A stretch of 51,014 nucleotides of DNA from Escherichia phage tiwna, in sequence record NC_054896.1; one strand, given 5' to 3'. The notes below the pieces were generated by a model. The model saw only the letters and a list, made by a program, of their open reading frames with translations. It ran no database searches and was not told the origin of the DNA. Shown one piece after another: positions 16,101-48,900 of the stretch. Within the stretch, counting starts at the first letter, position 1. Every line of letters starts with the position of its first letter. Position numbers and translations under genes: made by a program.

Positions 16101-16119
16101 TTTTAACAAAAAGTGCTAT
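16101..16119 (-). promoter_or_regulatory. conserved palindromic box, inverted copy abutting the chaperone RBS
   Basis: TTTTAACAAAAAGTGCTAT immediately followed by AAGGAG and ATG 16134. Confidence 0.4.
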
Positions 16120-16133
16120 AAGGAGATCTTGAG

Positions 16134-31879: not shown

Positions 31880-31897
31880 TTGTAAAATCCTCCTAAA

Positions 31898-31914
31898 TAG
31901 CACTTTTTGCTAAT
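31898..31914 (+). promoter_or_regulatory. conserved palindromic box (perfect palindrome TAGCA-N5-TGCTA) abutting the tail fibre RBS
   Basis: TAGCACTTTTTGCTAAT; lies between the primase terminator and the tail fibre RBS. Confidence 0.4.
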
Positions 31915-31943
31915 GACAATGCAGATAATAGCATTTTCAAATG

Positions 31944-39568: not shown

Positions 39569-39960
39569 TGAAGAAATTTTTACTTACACCAATCGCAATG
39601 GCGGTGATCTTGTCTGGATGTTCAAGCGTTACGCCACTGACCGGATTAATCGGCAGTAAGCCGGAAATCACAGCACAGGCTGGCGCGGAGAACGTGAAGC
39701 AGACAGTTGGCATTACAGAAAAGCATGACGCCAGCACAAAACAGAAAACCACAATAAAGGAATCTGCGGTTGACAAGGTTGACACGTCCAGCAAGAAGGA
39801 TTTCACAACATCAACCATTCAGGCCAATACCATCAAGGCAGACAAAATTCAGGTCGTGCAGGGTAATAACGGCAGATGGTACGATCCAATAATCATATGC
39901 GTGGTTGTGTTAATTGTGCTGATTTGTCTTTACTGGAGAGAAAAGAAAAAGGAGGCTTAA
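39565..39960 (+). CDS. unimolecular spanin (lipoprotein with C-terminal TMD)
   Basis: Lipobox ILSGC at the N-terminus and C-terminal [18 protein letters not shown], as in the T1-type u-spanin; the track start is TTG, real ATG at 39565. Confidence 0.6.
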
Positions 39961-39976
39961 TGCCTCCTTTATTTTT
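39945..39976. terminator. bidirectional terminator
   Basis: Hairpin aggaggcttaatgcctcct with flanking A- and T-runs, overlapping the spanin stop. Confidence 0.55.
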
Positions 39977-40199
39977 ATGCGTCGGGCCACATATGAGTTT
40001 CGTTTGTTGGCTTGTTCGATTCTTCGTACTGCCTTACTTCAATGCTGCAAGTGTCGCCGTACAGTTCTGCAATCTTGCGCTCATTTTCAACAGCCGATTG
40101 CTCACTCCATCCAAAATCCCTGTCATAAATTGTCGGGATTTCAGCAGAAGATCCGTTGTCATGATTATATACGCGAACTACTAAAAACTTGCTGGACAT
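39975..40199 (-). CDS. hypothetical protein (74 aa)
   Basis: First gene downstream of the minus-strand promoter module at 40236-40279. Confidence 0.45.
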   Translation of the reverse strand: MSSKFLVVRVYNHDNGSSAEIPTIYDRDFGWSEQSAVENERKIAELYGDTCSIEVRQYEESNKPTNETHMWPDA

Positions 40200-40233
40200 A
40201 ATTTTACCTTTTGGTTGTTTCGTTTCGATGAAA

Positions 40234-40279
40234 CAAATATACCCGACACTAGGCCGGGCGTTTTAACAAAAAATGCTAT
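40234..40279 (-). promoter_or_regulatory. conserved box plus hairpin plus -10; right arm of the ~46-bp inverted repeat
   Basis: Reverse complement reads ATAGCATTTTTTGTTAAAAcgcccggcctagtgtcgggTATATT. Confidence 0.55.
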
Positions 40280-40470
40280 TCCATACGCTTTACCGTAACC
40301 AGTAATACACCATCATCATTGCATAAAACATGTTCAGTGGTGCTAAAAGCGCGCATATCTGAATAAAGTAGCGTAAGTAAAGCATGAATAAAATCCTCAT
40401 GTGATATTGAATTTACGGCGCAGTGCTTCAAGATCTTGTCTATTAGCTTTTGCCTGGAACAATTCATCAT
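40276..40470 (-). CDS. hypothetical protein (64 aa)
   Basis: GGGGAG RBS; stop codon is the TAG of the box; overlaps the upstream gene by 74 nt out of frame. Confidence 0.4.
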   Translation of the reverse strand: MMNCSRQKLIDKILKHCAVNSISHEDFIHALLTLLYSDMRAFSTTEHVLCNDDGVLLVTVKRME

Positions 40471-40792
40471 CGCCCATCTCCCCTATTCTCGCCATATCCC
40501 TGATCCAGTCGTTGCGCATACCATCCAGGCTATACAATTCGAATCCGAAAGGCCGCTTTGACGATCCTTTGGACCAGTATTTACCGCAGACCCCATCTAT
40601 ATAGCCAGCCGTCATCATTCTTGCGCAAAATTCCTTAGATGCAAGGCTGGCGAACATTCGCGGCGTAAGTCCGGCGGCCCGTGCGAGCCGCTCACATTCT
40701 CTATGCTGATAGATAAATTTGGCTATGTGCTGCCTGTTAAACCAGTCGTATGACTCACACCATTTATACAGATCAAGCAAAAACATAATCAT
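40397..40792 (-). CDS. hypothetical protein (131 aa)
   Basis: ATGA coupling to the upstream ATPase gene. Confidence 0.45.
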   Translation of the reverse strand: MIMFLLDLYKWCESYDWFNRQHIAKFIYQHRECERLARAAGLTPRMFASLASKEFCARMMTAGYIDGVCGKYWSKGSSKRPFGFELYSLDGMRNDWIRDMARIGEMGDDELFQAKANRQDLEALRRKFNIT

Positions 40793-42369
40793 CCCAGCAG
40801 TATTGGATTGACAAAAATAACACCATTAATAACACAAACATAATTTCTTTCTTCCAGCATTGGCAGCAAGTGCCCTTCTATCCTCTTCATTACGCCAGCT
40901 TGACCAACGAAAGGTTTTACCTTTCTCGCTGATTCGTACAGGGCGCGAATATTCAGAATCCCTTTATTAGCCTTGCCGTGTCTAGTGATCAATTCAATCA
41001 ATTTGCCCATTTCAGCATCATCACCAGCATAACCAGAAGCATTGGCGGCGCTAATGTATGTTTTGCTCAATTCCTGAAACATGATCAGCGCCTCTTGCAT
41101 TGTTTCCACGTCGATCTCTTTCGACTTCTGCTGGTATCCAGCAGGATTAAACCAGTTGCGGATAACATGCAGGACGGAAGCAAGCCTGATCACCTGTTTA
41201 TCCATTTTACCCAGCGCACCGCGTAACATTGTATGAGAATACTTTCCGCCGTCTGCAAGATGCGGTTCCATATCCTGGCGAGCAATGTTGAGCACTCGCA
41301 TAGCTGAACGGCTTATTTTCAGCGATATATTTGATTCGCTCATGATGTTATGCACCAATTGATAATATTGGGCCTTCAATTCAGGATCCACCGCCTCATA
41401 GGTAGAATCACCATTTTCATCAATGAATGAGCGACGGCCTAAGAATGATTCCTCACGGACCAACAAAAAGCGCTCACTCACACCGATACCGCGCGATCCA
41501 GCGTCCATGATTCCGCTTATCGTTTCATCCTGGGCTATAACGCTCATACATCCAAGCGCGCGAAAACTCATGTTATTGTCAGCATTAGCACGGGCGATTG
41601 ATACGTGACCATTATCCCACGCCTTAAGCACTAGCTCGCTGTTAGTCTTCCTTTCGCTATTGGCATAGGTCAAGCCTAACAGGCTGTTAATACTTGTTGC
41701 TTCGTCAGATATTACGGCAAAGTTACCTTGCTTGTTGTTGATTTTCGCCAAGCCTTCTGGAGTTGTATCTGAAACAGGGAAAGTTATATCACACATTTTT
41801 TCCAGCTTCTCCTCCAGATCCTCTTTTTCCTGGTATAGAGATTCCATATCAGCGCCTGATCTTTCGCTTTTCATCTCCTTTGCAAGACCTGCCAACTTTG
41901 CCTGTATTTTCTTTCTTTCCTTGCGGCGTTGCTCGTTGATCTTCTCAACTTCCGCAATCATCGGAGCAATAGCCATGCTGTTGATCGCAGATTTACCAGT
42001 TGACGGCGGCTGGCTTGTAACGACGTAAAGCGCAGTCGGCTGATCGGTCCCGTGATAGTCAACCGTAAAGCGTCCAAGCATGGCGGCAGAAATGCAGCCG
42101 ATAAAGTGCATGTAAGCCGATGATTCAGGGAATTGAACGGATCGCGCAATGCTGCGTGATAACTTTCCGACAACATCAATATCATTACCAAGAGAAATTA
42201 CGGGGTAGCGATCGTGACCGCTATTTACATCCTTCACGTCGCCCCAAAAGCTGGACGACTGGCGATAGCCGTTAGCCTGAATTGATACGCGAACTGGTGA
42301 AAGGTTCTGGCTTTCAGCCATAGCGATTATTTGCTGTGGAGTTAATTTGTTCGTTTCTAATGAAAACAT
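40789..42369 (-). CDS. P-loop NTPase of unknown function (526 aa)
   Basis: Walker A SQPPSTGKSAI and Walker B-like FAVISDEA; GGAG RBS; first gene after the promoter box at 42423. Confidence 0.5.
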   Translation of the reverse strand: MFSLETNKLTPQQIIAMAESQNLSPVRVSIQANGYRQSSSFWGDVKDVNSGHDRYPVISLGNDIDVVGKLSRSIARSVQFPESSAYMHFIGCISAAMLGRFTVDYHGTDQPTALYVVTSQPPSTGKSAINSMAIAPMIAEVEKINEQRRKERKKIQAKLAGLAKEMKSERSGADMESLYQEKEDLEEKLEKMCDITFPVSDTTPEGLAKINNKQGNFAVISDEATSINSLLGLTYANSERKTNSELVLKAWDNGHVSIARANADNNMSFRALGCMSVIAQDETISGIMDAGSRGIGVSERFLLVREESFLGRRSFIDENGDSTYEAVDPELKAQYYQLVHNIMSESNISLKISRSAMRVLNIARQDMEPHLADGGKYSHTMLRGALGKMDKQVIRLASVLHVIRNWFNPAGYQQKSKEIDVETMQEALIMFQELSKTYISAANASGYAGDDAEMGKLIELITRHGKANKGILNIRALYESARKVKPFVGQAGVMKRIEGHLLPMLEERNYVCVINGVIFVNPILLG

Positions 42370-42422
42370 TCGTTAGCTTCTCCTTTGTGGGCCGTAAATT
42401 TTAACGGCCCAATACTACCCCG

Positions 42423-42441
42423 TTTTGTCAAAAAGTGCTAT
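42423..42441 (-). promoter_or_regulatory. conserved box (variant TTGACAAAA), minus orientation
   Basis: TAGCACTTTTTGACAAAA on the minus strand; TAG is the stop of gene 42438..42659. Confidence 0.5.
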
Positions 42442-42659
42442 TTGATCCGCTCTATTGCAACCAGAAGTCGATCAGGCTGGCGGTCGCTGTAGCATTCTCC
42501 TGTAATCCCATCCTTAAACGTAAAGTAAAGCGCCTTATGATATGAAAAACCAATCAGCCAACCTACCGCCGTTTTTTTGATGGGCCTGACTATATCGCCA
42601 GGCTTGAAAGTCTTTGTGGTAGAATGCGTTACTTTGTAACGGTTTTCACTGTTTATCAC
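42438..42659 (-). CDS. hypothetical protein (73 aa)
   Basis: ATGA coupling with the upstream gene. Confidence 0.45.
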   Translation of the reverse strand: MINSENRYKVTHSTTKTFKPGDIVRPIKKTAVGWLIGFSYHKALYFTFKDGITGECYSDRQPDRLLVAIERIK

Positions 42660-43042
42660 AGATATTTACCCTCAAAAAGATAACAGCCGCCAGCAGAGAA
42701 TCCGACCTCTTCACGGTACAGGTTCCAGCGGTCGCCGCACTCATCAAAAACATAACCCGCAACGCTTCCAAGCGGTCGCCCTTTCTCGATCTGGTATCGC
42801 TTGCCCTGCTTAAAGTGCTTTTTGCACGGCATGTTATGATCTACAAACGTGCAAAGAACGGTTTTTGTGTTAATGGCGCGGTAATCATCTCGGTTTGCTG
42901 GAAGCCAGCGGCTACCCTTAACAAGCGTCTTAACCTGGAACTCTTCCACCTCGATCACATCATCACTTCCTGCAATCTTCTGATAAACCGTTTTAAAACG
43001 GCCTTTCATCAATACGTTGGTTTCATTACAGATAACATTCAT
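42656..43042 (-). CDS. hypothetical protein (128 aa)
   Basis: GGAG RBS; downstream of the box at 43097. Confidence 0.45.
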   Translation of the reverse strand: MNVICNETNVLMKGRFKTVYQKIAGSDDVIEVEEFQVKTLVKGSRWLPANRDDYRAINTKTVLCTFVDHNMPCKKHFKQGKRYQIEKGRPLGSVAGYVFDECGDRWNLYREEVGFSAGGCYLFEGKYL

Positions 43043-43096
43043 GATCAGATCTCCTTTGTTTGTTCGATGTGATTATGCCAGGTTTTTACACCTGGC

Positions 43097-43115
43097 TTTT
43101 AACAAAAAGTGCTAT
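43097..43115 (-). promoter_or_regulatory. conserved box, minus orientation, with -10 at 43062-43067
   Basis: TAGCACTTTTTGTTAAAA, hairpin gccaggtgtaaaaacctggc, then CATAAT. Confidence 0.5.
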
Positions 43116-43822
43116 TTTGAGTTTGACTCAAAGACGGCGCGAGCAAAGCCGCGCGGAGTGAGGGAGCGGATCATCTTTGTGCGCGATGACTTACCGCCAG
43201 TTTTGGCCCAGCCTGGATTATCTTTGTCTTCCTCTTTCGGCAGGATTAAAGCGCGCGGAGGAATAACAAAGCCGTTGCCAGTCCAGAGGCACGTTTTCTT
43301 AAAATAGCGATCCCGTGCCGGAATAATATCAGGGAAGTCGGGATGTTTATCATCTTCCGGCAGATAGCCAGCGTAATCGCACGGATGGAACGTATAATCA
43401 GGCTTTCGCCATAACGTTGACAACTTGCCAACCGGATTTTCGATCATGTAAGGAACACCGAAATAATCAGCTATATCAGCCGCGATTCTGCAAGTGTCGG
43501 CGGCCTCATCCTGGAACGATGGATTCTCAAGGCGTTTTTTGGCCCAATGGCGAGATCCGCTATTTGCAAGGTCAGTGCATGGTGGGAAGGCCATAATAAA
43601 ATCAGGATTGCCCCACTCATTATTGATTGCCTTAACATAAAAAGCATCATCAATCCAGGCGTTAACGTATTCGATATTCTCATGCTGTATGCGCACTGAC
43701 TGGTAATCACCGTGATCGCCACCGTCAGCATTAAAGCAAATGCACTTATAGCCATTATCAGCCCAATCTTTAACGGCTTTACCAGATCCATCAAATAGGG
43801 AGAATATTAAACCTTTATACAT
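43112..43822 (-). CDS. small DNA C5-cytosine methyltransferase-like protein
   Basis: Motif I-like LFDGSG, motif IV-like FPPC, motif VI-like IENP in the expected order; GAGG RBS before ATG 43822. Confidence 0.4.
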   Translation of the reverse strand: MYKGLIFSLFDGSGKAVKDWADNGYKCICFNADGGDHGDYQSVRIQHENIEYVNAWIDDAFYVKAINNEWGNPDFIMAFPPCTDLANSGSRHWAKKRLENPSFQDEAADTCRIAADIADYFGVPYMIENPVGKLSTLWRKPDYTFHPCDYAGYLPEDDKHPDFPDIIPARDRYFKKTCLWTGNGFVIPPRALILPKEEDKDNPGWAKTGGKSSRTKMIRSLTPRGFARAVFESNSK

Positions 43823-43832
43823 CGTCATTACC

Positions 43833-44057
43833 TCAAAACGGAAAACAGCGCGGACAACTAGGATCGAAATCGCATCCACAATCATTAACAATCATATTGG
43901 GATCTGCAAATATTGCGCTTGATTCAAGATCCATATCCATATCACCTAAAGCCTCATCAAGAGTCTTAATTTTATATGCCACTTCAAGCGCCGCCTCTTT
44001 ATTTAGTCCGGCATCTTCTGCCATTTGAAGGCGCTCAAAAAAACCGTCCTGACTCAT
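43833..44057 (-). CDS. hypothetical protein with Cys-rich C-terminus (74 aa)
   Basis: C-terminal CGCDFDPSCPRC; acidic N-terminal half. Confidence 0.45.
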   Translation of the reverse strand: MSQDGFFERLQMAEDAGLNKEAALEVAYKIKTLDEALGDMDMDLESSAIFADPNMIVNDCGCDFDPSCPRCFPF

Positions 44058-44171
44058 CGCATAACTCCCTTAATAACAGCCAAGATAATAGCCAGGCCAG
44101 CAGCAGTAACCAAAAATCCAACCGCGCCAATAATCGAATAAAAAAAGAAATCAATAGCTTTATCTATCATT
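44055..44171 (-). CDS. small membrane peptide (38 aa)
   Basis: GAGGTG RBS; single TM IIGAVGFLVTAAGLAIILAVI; ATGA coupling to the downstream gene; below the ORF-track cutoff. Confidence 0.35.
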
Positions 44172-44212
44172 TTTCACCTCATTTAAAAGGCGGCAAAACG
44201 CCGCCAGATTAA

Positions 44213-44440
44213 TTAAAGAGCGCGCCAACTTTGAATATAGAAAGCGTTTTCTTCCAGCAATTCTTTTACCTGATCTTTATTGTATTTGCGCACCTTACCG
44301 CCTGGATGGATACCAATAAGATAGCCGCCTTTGCCCTCGGTGATAGTGATTTGGCTAATTCCGCAGGACTTATCAAGTTTTACAGCCACGCGGTGATGAG
44401 CGTCAATAGTTGCCATAATGTTTAAAACTTTTGCTTTCAT
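44213..44440 (-). CDS. hypothetical protein (75 aa)
   Basis: GAGGAT RBS. Confidence 0.45.
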   Translation of the reverse strand: MKAKVLNIMATIDAHHRVAVKLDKSCGISQITITEGKGGYLIGIHPGGKVRKYNKDQVKELLEENAFYIQSWRAL

Positions 44441-44548
44441 TTAAATATCCTCAATTGAAATATGAATGACGTGGCGCTCTTTTTCCGTCGCCGCCGTAAT
44501 GGTCATTTGCAACCGCCACCATCCAAGCGCTTTTGAAAATAAATAGCC

Positions 44549-44761
44549 TCATTTCTTATTTTTCAGCTTAAATTTATGACCTGGAACACCAGCGCCAATA
44601 TACCCATCGTTGTATTCCATTAAATAAAGGTGAAGACCATTATCTGAAATTACATGAGGATCTTCTTTGAGATTTCCCATTAGTGTATATTCTTTTCCGC
44701 GCGTAAATTTCCAAATTGAGTTATAAGTTTCTACGCATTTAAGTTTTAATTGCTTTGCCAT
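44549..44761 (-). CDS. hypothetical protein (70 aa)
   Basis: ATG overlaps the upstream stop. Confidence 0.45.
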   Translation of the reverse strand: MAKQLKLKCVETYNSIWKFTRGKEYTLMGNLKEDPHVISDNGLHLYLMEYNDGYIGAGVPGHKFKLKNKK

Positions 44762-45042
44762 TATGCGATCCCAGTTACGTTAAAACTTACAGCCTTTGTT
44801 GCGCTAAATACATAAGCATCAACAGCGCCGCCAAATACACGAATTTTACCCTGGCCGTACTGCGCATTCATATTTCGCCAAACCGTTCTATTAGAGCAGA
44901 ATGCGCTACCAGTCTTAATAAGCGTATCCATCTCTTTTCTTAGATCGCGATAGTCAAGCCAGAATCTAAAGGCACGCTGTTTAATTCGCGCCGCCTTGAT
45001 TTTTTCTCTTGCGCTATTGAAATCATTCTTTTCGTATGCCAT
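44761..45042 (-). CDS. hypothetical protein (93 aa)
   Basis: ATG overlaps the upstream stop. Confidence 0.45.
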   Translation of the reverse strand: MAYEKNDFNSAREKIKAARIKQRAFRFWLDYRDLRKEMDTLIKTGSAFCSNRTVWRNMNAQYGQGKIRVFGGAVDAYVFSATKAVSFNVTGIA

Positions 45043-45239
45043 TAAATGATCTCCATGTATGTTTCAAAGCCATTTAACTTGAACAGGCCGTTTTCACATT
45101 TGCGCACGTTCCAAGTTAGCCCTGAGTGGTACGCCTCCATATCATCAAGGTCAATGGTGATTTCAGCGCCTTTCTTAAACAAACCTTTTTCGTGAGACTT
45201 GTCGCGCTTAACAACTTTAACATCAACCTGATTTTCCAT
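45042..45239 (-). CDS. hypothetical protein (65 aa)
   Basis: GAGGA RBS before the internal ATG (MENQ...) of track ORF 45042..45290. Confidence 0.45.
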   Translation of the reverse strand: MENQVDVKVVKRDKSHEKGLFKKGAEITIDLDDMEAYHSGLTWNVRKCENGLFKLNGFETYMEII

Positions 45240-45295
45240 CTTTAAATCCTCGCTTGTTTTCGATGGGTGTAATATACCATTCAGGCGCACATCGT

Positions 45296-45314
45296 TTTTA
45301 ACAAAAAGTGCTAT
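45296..45314 (-). promoter_or_regulatory. conserved box, minus orientation, with -10 at 45271-45276
   Basis: TAGCACTTTTTGTTAAAA then 19 bp then TATATT. Confidence 0.5.
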
Positions 45315-45601
45315 TCAACAACTTTTCCAGTTAAAGAGATAAGTTGCCTTGTAATCTTGTGGCGGCGATACTTACGCGCAACAACAGGAAGGCTTTCACC
45401 GCTTTGATGACCAAAACAGATCGGCAATTCACCTTCAAGCGAACGGAAGCCGCCAAATTCAAGATCCCGCACTGGCTTAGCGCGCCAGGCTTCAATAAAT
45501 CCGCGCTCGTCACGAGTGATATAGCGGTATATATTTGGGAGGGGCAATTGTATCCCCTCAAAATCCACTGTGTCGGTGTAGCTGTAAAACTTAGAACTCA
45601 T
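45311..45601 (-). CDS. hypothetical protein (96 aa)
   Basis: GGAG RBS before the internal ATG (MSSKFY...); stop codon is the TAG of the box. Confidence 0.45.
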   Translation of the reverse strand: MSSKFYSYTDTVDFEGIQLPLPNIYRYITRDERGFIEAWRAKPVRDLEFGGFRSLEGELPICFGHQSGESLPVVARKYRRHKITRQLISLTGKVVE

Positions 45602-45744
45602 AGTCAACAACTCCAAACTCGTTAACGATTTGCGCCTTGTAGAATCCGCCATTTTTCGCTAGGTTGTAACAAGCGGCTACGGTTTCAAATTCGCGCGCTT
45701 CCGGCTGGCTGTTTTCATGTTCCCAGGTAATCAGAGTAACCATT
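45589..45744 (-). CDS. small hypothetical protein (51 aa)
   Basis: ATG about 58 nt downstream of the box at 45802; ATGA coupling to the next gene; below the ORF-track cutoff. Confidence 0.3.
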
Positions 45745-45801
45745 TTCAAATCCTCGCATTCGTTGTCGATGCGTGTAATGTACAGGAATGCGAGGATTGA
45801 G

Positions 45802-45820
45802 TTTTAACAAAAAGTGCTAT
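45802..45820 (-). promoter_or_regulatory. conserved box, minus orientation, with -10 at 45777-45782
   Basis: TAGCACTTTTTGTTAAAA then 19 bp then TACATT. Confidence 0.5.
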
Positions 45821-46084
45821 TTAGTCCAGGAATTCGATTTCACGCTCTCCAGTTAACGGATCCACAAGCCAGAATCCGAGCGGTTCGCCGTGAACACCGC
45901 CATAGAATCCAAGCGCCGTCAGATCTTCACCTTTAACGAATACCAGGTTTCCGCTACGGCTTACGTGAGACACGTTAACGATAACCGGAAATGTGCGATC
46001 CTTAAATGCAGGCCGCAGGGCGTAACATCCGTTGTTGAGCAAACGTGCTTTGCGCTTAACTGGAATAGGTGCATTAATTTTCAT
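45821..46084 (-). CDS. hypothetical protein (87 aa)
   Basis: Strong RBS aaggag; stop abuts the box. Confidence 0.5.
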   Translation of the reverse strand: MKINAPIPVKRKARLLNNGCYALRPAFKDRTFPVIVNVSHVSRSGNLVFVKGEDLTALGFYGGVHGEPLGFWLVDPLTGEREIEFLD

Positions 46085-46232
46085 GGTTATTACTCCTTAT
46101 CGTAAAGATTTAAAGACGTATAGTTTATTGCGGTAACTATATATCCGCATTGTTATTTCTCGCAGTGCAATATATTCCTTCCTGTTTTCCGGCAGACTGG
46201 CGAGCAACAACAGGCAGTATTTATAAGCGCGG

Positions 46233-46520
46233 TCAAGATTTCTTTCCGTGCCCCTGCAATATCCCTTGTTGCGCCTGGAGCGGTACAGCCATAACAATTT
46301 CTTGAACATTTCGGATACGCCCATACAGATCACAAACTTCGTTGATAAAACAGCGTTGAGACTCTTTATCCTGCTTCTCAGACATCGCACGGCACTCATA
46401 GCGGTGATTATGCACGATGACAACAACCATATTTTCAGGTGCTGACGGGTGACGCGCTGACGCGTCGCAGATTGAAACATCCATACCCATCTCATGTGCT
46501 TTCTTGATCACATCCAACAT
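46233..46520 (-). CDS. hypothetical protein (95 aa)
   Basis: AGGAG RBS before the internal ATG (MLDVIKK...). Confidence 0.4.
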   Translation of the reverse strand: MLDVIKKAHEMGMDVSICDASARHPSAPENMVVVIVHNHRYECRAMSEKQDKESQRCFINEVCDLYGRIRNVQEIVMAVPLQAQQGILQGHGKKS

Positions 46521-46774
46521 TTTTTCTTCTCCTGCAATAAGCAAACATCATTGATAAAATCAGCACGGCCCTTAATGTTGCTGATGTGGAACGTCTTTTC
46601 AGCGTACAGGCCATCACCTTCAATAACGATCATTACGCGAGTCGGTTTATTCACGGGCGCACACGAAAAGAGTGGTCGCGCCGGAAGAAATTTAGTAGCC
46701 ACATCCAGGTTAGCCCTGGCGGCCCTGCAAAATGCCTCCGCCAGATCCAAATCATTTTCGGTAATCACCGCCAT
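46508..46774 (-). CDS. hypothetical protein (88 aa)
   Basis: ATG overlaps the upstream stop. Confidence 0.45.
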   Translation of the reverse strand: MAVITENDLDLAEAFCRAARANLDVATKFLPARPLFSCAPVNKPTRVMIVIEGDGLYAEKTFHISNIKGRADFINDVCLLQEKKKCWM

Positions 46775-47046
46775 TACTTCTTGATCTCCTCACTGATAAA
46801 TTTCAGCACCTGACGTAAGAAAACCTCGTTGTTGATAGTCGCTGGCAATTCTTCTTTCACTTCTTGCGGCAGATAGATATTGCCGTGCCAGGTCAAGCAA
46901 TCGTAGTTGATACGATAAGAGCAAAGCCACTCGCAATCGTTATCTGCTTCCCAAATGCAGAGTTGCAGAACATCGCCAAAATCCTCAACAGTCAGATCCA
47001 GACCGTGACGCTTAGCGAAGTTGAAAGTGGTTTTGCTGATGTTCAT
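46774..47046 (-). CDS. hypothetical protein (90 aa); first gene of the leftward early cluster
   Basis: GGAG RBS; directly downstream of the promoter box at 47106. Confidence 0.5.
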   Translation of the reverse strand: MNISKTTFNFAKRHGLDLTVEDFGDVLQLCIWEADNDCEWLCSYRINYDCLTWHGNIYLPQEVKEELPATINNEVFLRQVLKFISEEIKK

Positions 47047-47105
47047 TGCTATCTCCTGAGCGGTTCGTTTTGATGTGTGTAATGTACCCGATCAGGTGGC
47101 CTGAG

Positions 47106-47124
47106 TTTTAACAAAAAGTGCTAT
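47106..47124 (-). promoter_or_regulatory. conserved box, minus orientation, with -10 at 47081-47086
   Basis: TAGCACTTTTTGTTAAAA then 19 bp then TACATT. Confidence 0.5.
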
Positions 47125-47394
47125 TTGACGGTTAGCGCCAGGATTGTGATCGAAATAATCAAAAGTAATCATTCGTAATCAAATCACGTCAAAATGATGA
47201 TTGCCTTTGCAAATTTGATGAGAAAAGCAATCACGTTTAATCATTGGTTGCAGGGGAGATAGTGAAACCTTCCCCTCTCGCCTCAATTTTCCGCCTGGCT
47301 GTCAGTGGTTGTTATGTTCCGTTCCCGCCTGTTCTTTTGTTGACCTTCCGCAAAATACGATAACAAAAAATAACAAACAATACCTATATAATAC

Positions 47395-47660
47395 ATTGAA
47401 AAATAAGGATTATTTATTTATATGTATCTATATATTCTCTTTTGTTATCTTGGTTATTGTGGTATTTGGTGGGGTATATAGTTTTTGTGTATCTGTATGT
47501 GTGTATGGGTATGTAGGGGCATATATATCTATATGGCACTTTCCGCGAGAAAACTTCGATAACAGGCAATGATAACATTGATTTATAAGGAAAAATAACG
47601 CCTATATTGTTATTGTGCCACCATGTAAAATTGATAAAACACGCGGGAACAAGAAAAAAC
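47395..47660. repeat. GT-rich strand-biased noncoding region B, homologous to 26855-27060
   Basis: Shared blocks ttatttatttat, ttgttatct, gtatctgtatgtg and gggaacaagaaaaa; G-runs ggtgggg and gtagggg. Confidence 0.5.
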
Positions 47661-47662
47661 AG

Positions 47663-47691
47663 TTGACACATTAAATAGCATTATTGATAAT
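47663..47691 (+). promoter_or_regulatory. near-consensus sigma70 promoter (TTGACA-17-GATAAT)
   Basis: -35 at 47663-47668 and -10 at 47686-47691, about 28 nt before the AGGAGG RBS of gene 47720. Confidence 0.6.
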
Positions 47692-48714: not shown

Positions 48715-48900
48715 ATGAAAACGAAATTAGTCCATAAATCAGAAATCAAGATCGGCGATACTGTGATTCACAACGGAGAGCTTAGAACGGTTGACAAAGA
48801 GTCAATAAGCCACGATGAATTTGTGGGGATTTTGTTGTTCGGTGACTCTTATCGTCTTGGTTACAAGATGGTTGAGCTTGTGGAAGAGGTAAAATTCTAA
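48715..48900 (+). CDS. hypothetical protein (61 aa)
   Basis: RBS aggtg before ATG; stop abuts the box at 48902. Confidence 0.45.
   Translation: MKTKLVHKSEIKIGDTVIHNGELRTVDKESISHDEFVGILLFGDSYRLGYKMVELVEEVKF

What the first reader, a model, noticed from the sequence alone, without database searches (positions are those of the whole stretch)
40276..47124. Leftward early cluster of about 18 small genes, each promoter-insulated, as a reservoir of candidate host-takeover or anti-defence genes
Between 40.2 and 47.1 kb almost all genes are under 135 aa, lack recognisable motifs, and are fed by six separate box promoters (47106, 45802, 45296, 43097, 42423, 40261). The cluster includes a Cys-rich 74-aa protein (CGCDFDPSCPRC), a 38-aa TM peptide and several translationally coupled pairs. 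In virulent phages such regions typically hold inhibitors of host defence and metabolism.
Basis: inference. Interest (0 to 1): 0.5.

Follow-up and report, generated by a model that had tools for sequence, protein, structure and literature searches.

The report
T1-like phage small-gene arm, cassette-organised
This is the leftward small-gene arm of a T1-like coliphage: about 20 real but mostly uncharacterised genes in six operon-like modules, each headed by the family's known 21-base repeat joined to a promoter; half the genes are conserved core, half are swappable cargo, and the repeats are where the swapping happens.

Summary
The window is a Warwickvirus (Drexlerviridae, T1-like), 98% identical to phages tonijn, SECphi27 and Bas04. 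The six boxes are at exactly the stated coordinates, and so are the 74-aa Cys-rich ORF, the 38-aa TM peptide and the coupled gene pairs.

Three corrections:
- The box is a genome-wide 21-nt repeat (20 copies here). It is already published for TLS and T1 as an element of unknown function, and it is not specific to this cluster.
- Six boxes serve 21 genes, so it is modules, not genes, that have their own promoter.
- The cluster holds a 526-aa DUF3987 helicase and a C5-methyltransferase-like enzyme. About half the genes are core to the subfamily.

New here:
- A -10 hexamer sits exactly 19 nt after the box in 16/20 copies, usually with G at -14 and no -35. Most copies also carry a hairpin.
- Gene gain, loss and replacement between relatives break at gene ends and inside these cassettes, as with T4 PeSLs.
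- dN/dS of 0.02-0.3 shows that most of the ORFs are real genes.

One ORF belongs to the Gp54 family, whose Bas11 member triggers CapRelSJ46. No ORF matches a known anti-defence protein, so the anti-defence reading is plausible for the variable half only and remains untested. The region is ordinary but well organised; interest is modest.

The parts
47046..47125 (-). Cassette A: box 47106-47125, 19-nt spacer, -10-like TACATT at 47081-47086, leader ...CATCAAAACGA..., SD, ATG of g01 at 47046
   Evidence: homology to Hanrivervirus loci ends exactly at 47125-47127
46774..47046 (-). g01, 90 aa, acidic (pI 4.7), phrog_6147; present in 18/18 related loci
   Evidence: dN/dS 0.02-0.12
46508..46774 (-). 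g02, 88 aa, accessory (7/18 loci)
   Evidence: dN/dS 0.09
46233..46520 (-). g03a, 95 aa here; 69-70 aa in relatives, where a TGA stop stands in place of the window's CGA
46097..46324 (-). g03b, 75 aa, basic; overlaps g03a; accessory (6/18 loci)
45821..46084 (-). g04, 87 aa, phrog_9595; its T1 homologue is the C-terminal part of gp71 in T1's other arm
45743..45821 (-). Cassette B: box 45802-45821, -10-like TACATT at 45777-45782, 10-bp hairpin spanning the -10 and leader (z = -4.7)
45591..45743 (-). g05, 50 aa, Pfam DUF7170; with g06 forms module B, which relatives have swapped or lost
   Evidence: dN/dS 0.02-0.05
45311..45601 (-). g06, 96 aa, phrog_1972; module B
45239..45315 (-). Cassette C: box 45296-45315, TGG + TATATT (extended -10) at 45271-45276, leader CATCGAAAACAAGCGAGGA
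   Evidence: the orthologous cassette in Bas10/Bas11 is the published 'native promoter' of gp54
45042..45239 (-). g07, 65 aa, Gp54 family (PF25180, E = 1.7e-38); 100% identical to SECphi27 gp19
   Evidence: (PDB 9axb, E = 4e-16)
44761..45042 (-). g08, 93 aa, basic; accessory (11/18 loci); cleanly deleted in PeterMerian and MatMar
44549..44761 (-). g09, 70 aa; accessory (8/18 loci)
44451..44552 (-). g10, 33 aa, phrog_32259
   Evidence: dN/dS about 0.2
44213..44440 (-). g11, 75 aa, phrog_4344; core (18/18 loci; T1 gp5)
44189..44205 (-). Intrinsic-terminator-like hairpin GGCGGCGTTTTGCCGCC + TTTT, in the only box-free intergenic gap (42 nt) of the arm
44054..44170 (-). g12, 38 aa, single-TM peptide; accessory (13/18 loci)
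43833..44057 (-). g13, 74 aa, acidic (pI 4.05), invariant C-x-C-x5-C-x2-C ending RCFPF; core (18/18 loci; 448 phage records; T1 gp6)
   Evidence: AF2 model only pLDDT 68
43112..43828 (-). g14, C5-cytosine-methyltransferase-like enzyme (238 aa from ATG 43828; 257 aa if from 43885)
   Evidence: phrog_757; invariant FDGSG, PPC and ENP motifs; weak M.HaeIII profile hit; AF2 pLDDT 87.7; Foldseek top hits DNMT3A/B, E = 1.5e-7
43042..43116 (-). Cassette D: box 43097-43116, 7-bp hairpin in the spacer (z = -4.6), TGG + CATAAT at 43072-43077
42656..43042 (-). g15, 128 aa, phrog_2684; core (T1 gp7)
42438..42659 (-). g16, 73 aa; core
42369..42442 (-). Cassette E: box 42423-42442 (TTGACA variant), 8-bp hairpin enclosing the -10-like TAAAAT at 42398-42403
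40789..42369 (-). g17, 526 aa, DUF3987 P-loop helicase (phrog_2373 'DNA helicase'); core (T1 gp9, 58% identity)
40397..40792 (-). g18, 131 aa, phrog_2794; coupled to the helicase gene; core (T1 gp10)
40276..40470 (-). g19, 64 aa; overlaps g18 by 74 nt; core; dN/dS about 0.08
40199..40280 (-). Cassette F: box 40261-40280, terminator-like hairpin 40241-40259, -10-like TATATT at 40236-40241
39948..39970 (.). Bidirectional terminator shared with the convergent lysis (spanin) operon; end of the leftward arm

Best explanation
The region is the leftward arm of the divergent small-gene region of a Warwickvirus (T1-like) phage.

Layout (shown). It has six operon-like modules. Each begins with a composite cassette of about 75-80 nt that fills the whole intergenic gap:
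- the stop codon of the upstream gene, usually the TAG inside the box;
- the family's 21-nt repeat, at about -51 to -32;
- a 19-nt spacer of variable sequence that usually forms a hairpin;
- a -10 hexamer, often with G at -14 (TGn-like), and no -35 at the normal distance;
- a semi-conserved leader (CATCGAAAACGA), a Shine-Dalgarno site and the ATG.
Inside a module the genes are translationally coupled.

How it most likely works (inferred):
- Host sigma-70 RNA polymerase starts at each cassette as at an extended-10-type promoter.
- The box acts as an upstream enhancer or factor-binding element.
- The hairpin attenuates or processes read-through from the module upstream.

Second role of the cassettes (shown comparatively). 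Because they are near-identical repeats, they and the short gene-end overlaps are the points where whole genes or modules are deleted, replaced or moved between relatives. This is the way PeSL cassettes work in T4-like phages.

Cargo:
- The core half is a probable replication helicase module (g17-g19), a methyltransferase with its invariant acidic zinc-knuckle neighbour g13, and g01, g11, g15 and g16.
- The variable half holds the best candidates for host-interaction or counter-defence genes, among them g07, a Gp54-family protein. Their functions remain unknown.
For: Identity of the phage: 98% identity over the whole region to tonijn, SECphi27 and FritzSarasin.

The box and its published status:
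- Twenty box copies lie in the direction of transcription.
- It is the same element as the published TLS/T1 21-nt direct repeat aaATAGCACnnnTTGnTAAAA, which sits about 76 nt upstream of start codons.

Promoter geometry:
- The hexamer nAnnnT sits exactly 19 nt after the box in 16/20 window copies and 17/21 T1 copies. G at -14 is present in 13/16 and 15/17 of these.
- Conventional sigma-70 promoter matches in the region are no more frequent than in shuffled sequence: 14 found against 17 +/- 4 expected.
- Hairpins with z <= -2.6 occur in 10 of 14 cassettes folded. T1's GenBank record annotates several of these cassette hairpins as terminators.
- Intergenic gaps are 68-77 nt at the boxes; every other junction is at most 12 nt or an overlap, with one exception.

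Experimental support from the literature: Zhang et al. 2024 cloned Bas11 gp54 'with its native promoter' using a primer that starts inside the box. They detected the protein in uninfected E. coli, and two escape mutations just upstream of the gene lowered expression. Bas10 carries box-N19-TATCAT at that place.

Recombination at the cassettes:
- Module B is absent from PeterMerian, MatMar and damhaus, with the crossover inside the cassette (leader or box). In FritzSarasin and SECphi27 it is replaced by unrelated ORFs between the same two boxes.
- Six of 20 distinct breakpoints fall in cassettes (1.45 expected, P = 0.002). Fifteen of 20 lie within 20 nt of a gene end (P = 4e-8).
- A g05 homologue is the first gene after a box in the opposite arm of another phage.

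The genes are real: dN/dS is 0.02-0.3 for most ORFs.

Core versus accessory split.

Functions.
Against: - No transcription start sites or timing data for any T1-like phage were found in the searched literature. Promoter activity is therefore shown, indirectly, for one orthologous cassette only. That plasmid experiment does not exclude vector read-through.
- The TTGTTA inside the box is 22 nt from the -10, which sigma-70 region 4 cannot span. Only 5/16 window cassettes have a full TGn. How polymerase is recruited is thus unexplained, and the box may need a factor.
- The breakpoint statistics rest on 20 clustered BLAST HSP ends from 15 related loci that are not independent of each other.
- Most breakpoints lie at gene ends rather than in cassettes, so cassettes are one recombination substrate among several.
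- No functional evidence exists for any of the small ORFs in this window.
Confidence: 0.7

Rival explanations
1. One reading: an early host-takeover and anti-defence island in which essentially every small gene is an independently expressed inhibitor of host defence or metabolism.
For: - The arm is rich in small, fast-turnover genes of unknown function.
- The Gp54 family interacts with a defence protein.
- A methyltransferase is present.
- g01, g13 and g20 are small acidic proteins, a property shared with DNA-mimic anti-restriction proteins. That comparison rests on established knowledge and was not tested.
- The accessory-region concept for phages is established.
Against: - There are six promoters for 21 genes.
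- Eight genes are present in all 18 related loci, the methyltransferase in 17, and several have homologues in T1. They behave as core genes.
- A 526-aa helicase module sits in the arm.
- No ORF hits a known anti-defence or defence family.
- The same box heads late genes.
- SECphi27 gp19, identical to g07, does not trigger CapRelSJ46, and no anti-defence activity of Gp54 has been shown.
Confidence: 0.3
2. The boxes are not promoter elements. They are operator sites ('stoperators') for a phage repressor or regulator, or UP-like elements alone, and transcription of the arm starts only at its upstream end.
For: - The TLS authors list stoperators, enhancer-binding sites and UP elements as open possibilities.
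- The 7-nt G/C-containing core ATAGCAC is more conserved than an A/T-tract UP element needs to be.
- The phage family encodes a 'transcriptional regulator' (T1 gp23, Bas05 gp33).
Against: - The strict 19-nt coupling of the box to a -10 hexamer in two subfamilies is what a promoter predicts and a stoperator does not.
- A fragment starting at the box drives Gp54 expression without phage proteins.
- The two roles do not exclude each other: a regulator could still bind the box.
Confidence: 0.15
3. The arm is chiefly a replication and DNA-metabolism region (helicase module, methyltransferase). The small ORFs are selfish or competition genes, such as homing-endonuclease-associated genes and superinfection-exclusion or inter-phage competition genes, rather than anti-host-defence genes.
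For: - The helicase with g18 and g19 is core.
- HNH_3 homing endonucleases are inserted in this arm in JLBYU19, PeterMerian, BEK12A, GS71 and T1.
- The divergent methyltransferase allele (45% identity) always travels with an HNH gene.
- A 38-aa membrane peptide is present.
Against: The window itself carries no HNH gene in this arm. This reading explains the core half but gives no specific function for the accessory ORFs. It overlaps with the best explanation rather than excluding it.
Confidence: 0.2
4. Many of the small ORFs are annotation noise and do not encode proteins.
For: Several are very short (33, 38 and 50 aa). The g03 region has two overlapping open frames whose dN/dS is ambiguous, 0.3-0.7.
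Against: - dN/dS is 0.02-0.3, with many synonymous differences, for most ORFs, including the 33- and 50-aa ones; besides g03, single comparisons for g09, g12, g16 and g20 reach 0.4-0.76.
- PHROG families exist for most of them.
- The genes are tightly coupled in their spacing.
- Gp54 has a crystal structure.
Confidence: 0.03

Closest known systems
The 21-nt intergenic direct repeat of T1-like phages (aaATAGCACnnnTTGnTAAAA), described for TLS and noted in T1, Rtp and Rogue1 (PMC11447400)
   Same: It has the same sequence, the same orientation with transcription and the same distance to start codons: 73-81 nt here against 'approximately 76'. The six 'box promoters' of the finding are copies of this element.
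   Different: The published description leaves the function open and found no promoter next to the repeat. Here a -10 hexamer lies at a fixed 19-nt distance, G at -14 is common, there is a conserved leader and a hairpin, and recombination joints fall inside the cassette.
PeSL (promoter-early stem-loop) composite cassettes of T4-like myoviruses (PMC2839356, PMC4122927)
   Same: Both are short repeated intergenic units that combine a promoter with a stem-loop. Both flank small ORFs of unknown function in variable regions, and in both the indels and replacements between close relatives join within the units.
   Different: The phage family and the sequence are unrelated. Here the conserved block lies upstream of where a -35 would be and there is no canonical -35. 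The cassettes are also used genome-wide, late genes included. PeSL mini-circles were not tested, and cannot be tested, here.
T1 genes 1-10, the right-end leftward cluster, and the 'transcripton' organisation proposed for T1
   Same: The arm is syntenic with this T1 cluster. T1 gp5, gp6, gp7, gp9 and gp10 are homologues of g11, g13, g15, g17 and g18, and g19 also has a T1 homologue. T1's record annotates cassette hairpins as terminators.
   Different: T1 lacks the C5-methyltransferase-like gene, the Gp54 homologue and most accessory ORFs in this arm. It has an HNH gene instead.
Gp54 of phage Bas11 (PF25180; PDB 9axb/9erv), a direct activator of the CapRelSJ46 toxin-antitoxin defence
   Same: g07 is a full-length family member (E = 1.7e-38) in the same genomic slot, directly after a box cassette.
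   Different: g07 is identical to SECphi27 gp19, which did not activate CapRelSJ46. The family's own function for the phage is unknown, and the protein is non-essential in Bas11.
Phage accessory regions / morons (variable clusters of counter-defence genes)
   Same: Gene content varies between conserved flanks, the genes are small, and at least one product is sensed by host immunity.
   Different: About half of the arm is conserved core, and no counter-defence activity has been demonstrated for any gene here.

Membership tests
Drexlerviridae 21-nt direct repeat (TLS DR) | Consensus aaATAGCACnnnTTGnTAAAA | tested here: met
   All six cluster copies match with 0-2 mismatches; 20 copies occur in the window.
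Drexlerviridae 21-nt direct repeat (TLS DR) | Intergenic, oriented with transcription, about 76 nt upstream of a start codon | tested here: met
   The distance from box start to ATG is 79, 78, 76, 74, 73 and 81 nt. Every copy is on the coding strand of the downstream gene.
PeSL-type composite promoter/stem-loop cassette | Repeated intergenic unit containing a promoter | tested here: inconclusive
   The -10 lies at a fixed offset in 16/20 copies, and there is published expression from the orthologous Bas11 cassette. No TSS mapping exists and there is no canonical -35.
PeSL-type composite promoter/stem-loop cassette | Stem-loop within the unit | tested here: met
   Ten of 14 cassettes fold with z <= -2.6. 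The stems differ in sequence but not in position.
PeSL-type composite promoter/stem-loop cassette | Indel and replacement junctions between relatives lie in the unit | tested here: met
   Module B deletion and replacement join within cassettes. Six of 20 breakpoints are in cassettes against 1.45 expected.
PeSL-type composite promoter/stem-loop cassette | Sequence homology to T4-type PeSLs, and excised mini-circles | not testable with these tools
   The sequence families are unrelated, and circles need experiments. This is filed as 'works like', not as a member.
Extended -10 sigma-70 promoter | TGn immediately upstream of the -10 hexamer; -35 dispensable | tested here: inconclusive
   Full TGn is present in 5/16 window and 9/17 T1 cassettes; G at -14 in 13/16 and 15/17.
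Gp54 family (PF25180) | Profile match above the Pfam gathering score over the full length | tested here: met
   130.7 bits against a cut-off of 27, covering residues 1-65 of 65. PDB 9axb matches at E = 4e-16.
Gp54 family (PF25180) | Activation of CapRelSJ46 | tested here: not met
   This was not tested experimentally here. g07 is 100% identical to SECphi27 gp19, which the literature reports as non-activating.
C5 DNA-cytosine methyltransferase | Motif I (FxGxG), motif IV (PC, catalytic Cys), motif VI (ENV) | tested here: met
   F12-D-G-S-G16, P82-P-C84 and E130-N-P132 are invariant or nearly invariant in 23-25 homologues.
C5 DNA-cytosine methyltransferase | Significant sequence-profile match to the family (PF00145 or solved members) | tested here: not met
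   There is no Pfam or NCBIfam hit. None of the 120 listed homologues, out of 2060 found, carries a Pfam domain. The profile against the PDB gives only M.HaeIII at E = 0.39.
C5 DNA-cytosine methyltransferase | Fold | tested here: met
   The AF2 model has pLDDT 87.7 and pTM 0.87. The top Foldseek hits are the DNMT3B/3A catalytic domains (E = 1.5e-7, TM 0.48-0.55) and the prophage CP-933R DNA methyltransferase 3g7u.
C5 DNA-cytosine methyltransferase | Methylation activity and target sequence | not testable with these tools
   This needs methylome sequencing of phage DNA.
DUF3987 P-loop helicase | Pfam DUF3987 domain and Walker A motif | tested here: met
   PF13148 at E = 4.8e-44, residues 81-430. 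GKS is present in ...QPPSTGKSAINS.... phrog_2373 is named 'DNA helicase'.
Known anti-defence protein families (Ocr, ArdA, Acr, Tad, Gad and the like) | Sequence-profile or solved-structure match | tested here: not met
   There are no hits in Pfam (2025 models), NCBIfam, PADLOC or PDB sequences for any small ORF except Gp54 and DUF7170. g13 is not a Ksap1 homologue.

The most novel reading that the evidence does not exclude
The 21-nt repeat cassettes of Drexlerviridae are a PeSL-like portable 'expression slot' system. It would be a non-canonical promoter (a conserved box at -51 to -32 plus a -10 with G at -14, no -35, and probably a dedicated box-binding factor) that doubles as the homologous-recombination joint through which these phages capture, discard and move small cargo genes between slots and between the two arms. 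This would answer the question the TLS authors left open, namely what the repeat is for. It would also give a rule for finding the exchangeable, probably defence-related, cargo in about 450 sequenced genomes.
Probability: 0.45. Interest if true: 0.55.

Novelty: new member of a known kind. Interest (0 to 1): 0.35.

Why it matters
T1-like phages are common laboratory and therapy-relevant coliphages. SECphi27 and the BASEL phages Bas01-13 are standard test phages for bacterial immune systems. About half of their proteins have no known function, and the role of their conspicuous 21-nt repeat is an acknowledged open question.

If the repeats are promoter-plus-recombination cassettes, two practical consequences follow:
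- Transcription units and exchangeable cargo can be read directly from any Drexlerviridae genome.
- The accessory ORFs that sit in cassette-bounded slots, here g02, g03a/b, g05, g06, g07 (Gp54 family), g08, g09, g10, g12 and g20, become a short and rational list to screen for triggers and inhibitors of host defence.

As it stands, the cluster itself is an ordinary, already sequenced and annotated feature of its genus.

Tried and rejected
- Known-function searches for all 21 ORFs. Pfam, PHROGs, NCBIfam, PADLOC and PDB sequences with a concatenated query (55) gave only Gp54, DUF7170, DUF3987 and a PHROG 'DNA methyltransferase'.
- g13 as a homologue of Ksap1, the 74-aa Avs2 trigger that lies next to a methyltransferase in SECphi18. 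Rejected: tblastn against SECphi18 finds no match to g13, although the methyltransferase itself is 53% identical there. The neighbour of the SECphi18 methyltransferase is an unrelated 107-aa ORF.
- Structure of g13. AF2 with 21 homologues gave pLDDT 68.5 and pTM 0.37. That is too weak for a fold search, so none was run.
- Conventional sigma-70 promoters in the arm are not above shuffled expectation.
- TTGTTA of the box as the -35. Rejected: the spacer is 22 nt in every cassette.
- Rfam and tRNA scans of the whole window found nothing.
- A literature search for the exact motif found nothing relevant. Searches for transcriptome or TSS data on T1-like phages found none. A search for earlier reports linking the repeats to recombination in Drexlerviridae returned only the TLS paper.
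- Alternative cargo ORFs in relatives (SECphi27 gp20/gp21, herni_31, aaroes gp20/gp22 and others) gave only DUF7274 and HNH_3 in Pfam.
- Technical note: several annotated-region runs were repeats, made before I realised that one /data file holds several loci.

Full report
IDENTITY OF THE WINDOW

The 7-kb region is 96-99% identical over 90-100% of its length to some 58 sequenced coliphages of the genus Warwickvirus (Drexlerviridae, Tempevirinae). These include tonijn, SECphi27 and FritzSarasin/Bas04. More distant matches reach Hanrivervirus, Tlsvirus and Klebsiella phages. In those records the region is annotated as a helicase, a DNA methyltransferase and 13-22 hypothetical proteins. The complete PeterMerian (Bas05) map shows the context. 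The lysis genes come first, then this leftward arm. Next is an ORF-free stretch of about 0.6 kb, then a rightward arm of small genes that runs into the terminase genes. In T1 the syntenic arm is genes 1-10 at the right end.

CHECKING THE OBSERVATION

The six 'box' coordinates are exact. AATAGCACTTTTTGTTAAAA occurs on the minus strand at 47106, 45802, 45296, 43097, 42423 and 40261. There are 19 matches at up to 3 mismatches in the whole window, against 0.02 expected. A further copy with a 1-nt deletion lies at 48900.

The minus strand of 40276-47046 holds 20 ORFs: g01 to g19, with g03 resolved into two genes. A 21st gene, g20 (39975-40199), lies after the last box. The arm ends at a bidirectional terminator, 39948-39970.

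- The Cys-rich 74-aa ORF (g13), the 38-aa single-TM peptide (g12) and the coupled pairs are all as described.
- Eighteen of the 20 ORFs are at most 131 aa. The exceptions are a 526-aa DUF3987 P-loop helicase and a methyltransferase-like protein of 238-257 aa.

The ORFs are real genes. Pairwise dN/dS against orthologues of 60-95% identity is 0.02-0.3 for most of them, including the 33-aa and 50-aa ORFs. The two overlapping g03 frames are ambiguous, and single comparisons for g09, g12, g16 and g20 reach 0.4-0.76. In the g03 region, relatives encode a 69-aa and a 75-aa gene. The window has CGA where they have the TGA stop, which gives 95 aa. FritzSarasin has a 1-nt deletion that fuses the two genes.

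WHAT THE BOXES ARE

They are not special to this cluster. The same 20-21-nt element heads structural, lysis, replication and rightward-arm genes, always in the direction of transcription.

The element is already published. German, Kropinski, Misra and colleagues describe 18 intergenic copies of aaATAGCACnnnTTGnTAAAA in TLS, about 76 nt upstream of start codons. They note it in T1, Rtp and Rogue1 and list its function as an open question, with stoperator, enhancer site or UP element as options. They found only three conventional sigma-70 promoters in TLS.

My analysis adds the following:
- A -10-like hexamer (TATAGT, CATAAT, TATATT, TACATT, TAAAAT) lies exactly 19 nt after the box in 16/20 window copies and 17/21 T1 copies. 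Other offsets occur at most three times in the window (four in T1) in the stricter scan.
- G at -14 is present in 13/16 and 15/17 of those copies, and a full TGn in 5 and 9.
- The TTGTTA inside the box is 22 nt from the -10, so it cannot serve as a -35.
- A semi-conserved leader, CATCGAAAACGA, follows the -10.
- The variable spacer forms a hairpin that ends at or encloses the -10 in 10 of 14 cassettes folded (z <= -2.6). The stems differ in sequence but keep their position. T1's GenBank record annotates several of these hairpins as rho-independent terminators.
- The cassettes fill the entire intergenic gap of 68-77 nt. The stop codon of the upstream gene is usually the TAG inside the box. All other junctions in the arm are overlaps or at most 12 nt. 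The one exception is a 42-nt gap that holds a terminator-like hairpin at 44189-44205.
- Conventional sigma-70 matches in the region are no commoner than in shuffled sequence.

One piece of experimental support exists. Zhang et al. (Nature 2024) cloned Bas11 gene 54 'with its native promoter' using a primer whose phage-specific part begins TAGCACTTTTTGTTAAAACC, which is inside the box. They detected Gp54-FLAG in uninfected E. coli. They also found two escape mutations 'immediately upstream' of the gene that lowered expression. The near-identical Bas10 locus has box-N19-TATCAT enclosed in a hairpin at that place.

The cassettes are therefore very probably promoters that host polymerase can use. 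How the box contributes is not known.

MODULES AND THEIR TURNOVER

The six cassettes define six modules:
- A: g01-g04
- B: g05, g06
- C: g07-g14
- D: g15, g16
- E: helicase, g18, g19
- F: g20

The same six cassettes stand in the same positions in Warwickvirus, Hanrivervirus and Tlsvirus genomes and in IMG/VR contigs.

Content varies between relatives:
- Module B is replaced by unrelated 135-aa and 75-aa ORFs in FritzSarasin and SECphi27. It is absent, together with one cassette, from PeterMerian, MatMar and damhaus.
- BLAST homology to those genomes stops at 45315, the 5' end of box C, and resumes at 45740, the ATG of g05.
- The alignment shows that PeterMerian and MatMar carry cassette B's box, spacer and -10 joined to g07 within the conserved leader. 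Damhaus carries a C-type spacer, so its join lies in the box.
- Other events are whole-gene events. These include the loss of g08, g09 or g12, the replacement of g02/g03, a 45%-identical methyltransferase allele that always travels with an HNH_3 homing endonuclease, and the replacement of g15 in BEK12A.
- Of 20 distinct breakpoints, 6 lie in cassettes (1.45 expected, P = 0.002). Fifteen lie within 20 nt of a gene end (P = 4e-8).
- Cargo also changes slot. A DUF7170 (g05) homologue is the first gene after a box in the opposite arm of a distant relative. The T1 homologue of g04 is part of gp71 in T1's rightward arm, directly after a box.

This is the behaviour described for the PeSL promoter/stem-loop cassettes of T4-like phages. 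I file it as 'works like', not as a family member.

WHAT THE GENES ARE

In a presence matrix over 18 loci, g01, g11, g13, g15, g16, g17, g18 and g19 are universal and the methyltransferase is in 17. T1 has homologues of g04, g11, g13, g15, g17, g18 and g19. The variable set is g02, g03a/b, g05, g06, g07, g08, g09, g10, g12 and g20.

g07 is a full-length member of Pfam PF25180, 'phage antiviral trigger protein Gp54', with solved relatives 9axb/9erv. It is identical to SECphi27 gp19. Zhang et al. showed that gp19 does not activate CapRelSJ46, unlike Bas11 Gp54. The family is non-essential in Bas11 and its own function is unknown.

The methyltransferase has no Pfam or NCBIfam hit. It belongs to a family of more than 2000 phage proteins, and none of the 120 listed homologues carries a Pfam domain. 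Three lines of evidence still point to a C5 DNA-cytosine methyltransferase:
- Motifs I, IV and VI are invariant.
- There is a marginal profile hit to M.HaeIII across motifs I-IV.
- A confident AF2 model (pLDDT 87.7) has DNMT3A/3B catalytic domains and a prophage DNA methyltransferase as its best structural matches.
I therefore regard it as a compact, divergent C5 DNA-cytosine methyltransferase. That is the one gene in the arm with a plausible anti-restriction role by family.

It has an invariant C-x-C-x5-C-x2-C knuckle. It lies upstream of the methyltransferase in every related locus that carries that gene, directly abutting it or separated only by an HNH gene, and has a homologue in T1. It occurs in 448 phage records. 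Its model was too weak to search, and it is not related to Ksap1.

Nothing else matched Pfam, NCBIfam, PADLOC or PDB sequences.

VERDICT

It overstates the insulation, since there are six promoters for 21 genes. It also misses that the box is a genome-wide element that has already been described.

- The variable half of the arm behaves as an accessory region, and one of its families is known to be sensed by host immunity.
- The other half is conserved core that includes a helicase module.
- No counter-defence function is demonstrated or detectable by homology.
- 'Early' timing is unproven, because no transcriptome of a T1-like phage was found.

The useful new points are the fixed box/-10 geometry and the role of the cassettes as recombination joints. 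In the searched literature only the TLS paper discusses the repeat, and it does not link it to recombination.

Noticed in passing
window 16101-16120 (-) and 31896-31915 (+); T1 locus L017 18850 (-) and 34902 (+): Box copies with no downstream ORF. Each is followed about 50-60 nt later by a strong GC hairpin; the 16101 copy's hairpin is followed by a T run. These are candidate short box-driven transcripts, one of them antisense to the late tail region. The layout is conserved between the window and T1.
   Followed up: no
window 47126-47683: An ORF-free divergent region of about 560 nt lies between the leftward and rightward small-gene arms. It has short GATAACA-type repeats, and at 47663-47691 (+) it carries the best conventional sigma-70 match of the area (TTGACA-17-GATAAT). 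Homology to SECphi27 and FritzSarasin breaks at 47472. It may hold pac or regulatory functions.
   Followed up: partly
window 46233-46520; L001 7619-8041: The window reads CGA where relatives have the TGA stop of g03a, so the ORF is 95 aa instead of 69. FritzSarasin has a 1-nt deletion in an A run that fuses g03a and g03b into an annotated 140-aa protein. Either could be real variation or a sequencing error.
   Followed up: yes
window 43112-43828; L003, L004, L008, L009: There are two methyltransferase alleles, only 45% identical. The divergent allele is always accompanied by an HNH_3 homing endonuclease inserted between g13 and the methyltransferase gene. The swap runs from the start codon to about 86 nt before the stop (breakpoints 43825 and 43198).
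   Followed up: partly
window 43112-43828; L029 34815-35510: The methyltransferase belongs to a family of more than 2000 phage proteins of about 230 aa. None of the 120 listed homologues has a Pfam domain. The family is also present at 53% identity in the unrelated Dhillonvirus SECphi18.
   Followed up: partly
L026 690-911; L017 2269-2832: Cargo genes change slot and arm. A DUF7170 (g05) homologue is the first gene after a box in the opposite arm of an IMG/VR relative. The T1 homologue of g04 is the C-terminal part of gp71 in T1's rightward arm, directly after a box.
   Followed up: partly
window 44189-44205 (-): A strong intrinsic-terminator-like hairpin sits inside module C, between g11 and g12. 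The TM peptide, g13 and the methyltransferase can therefore be expressed only by read-through, which may act as an attenuator.
   Followed up: no
L020 (extra box plus about 370 nt upstream of g01); L007 7806-8132: Some Hanrivervirus relatives carry an additional box-bounded slot with an extra small gene upstream of g01.
   Followed up: no
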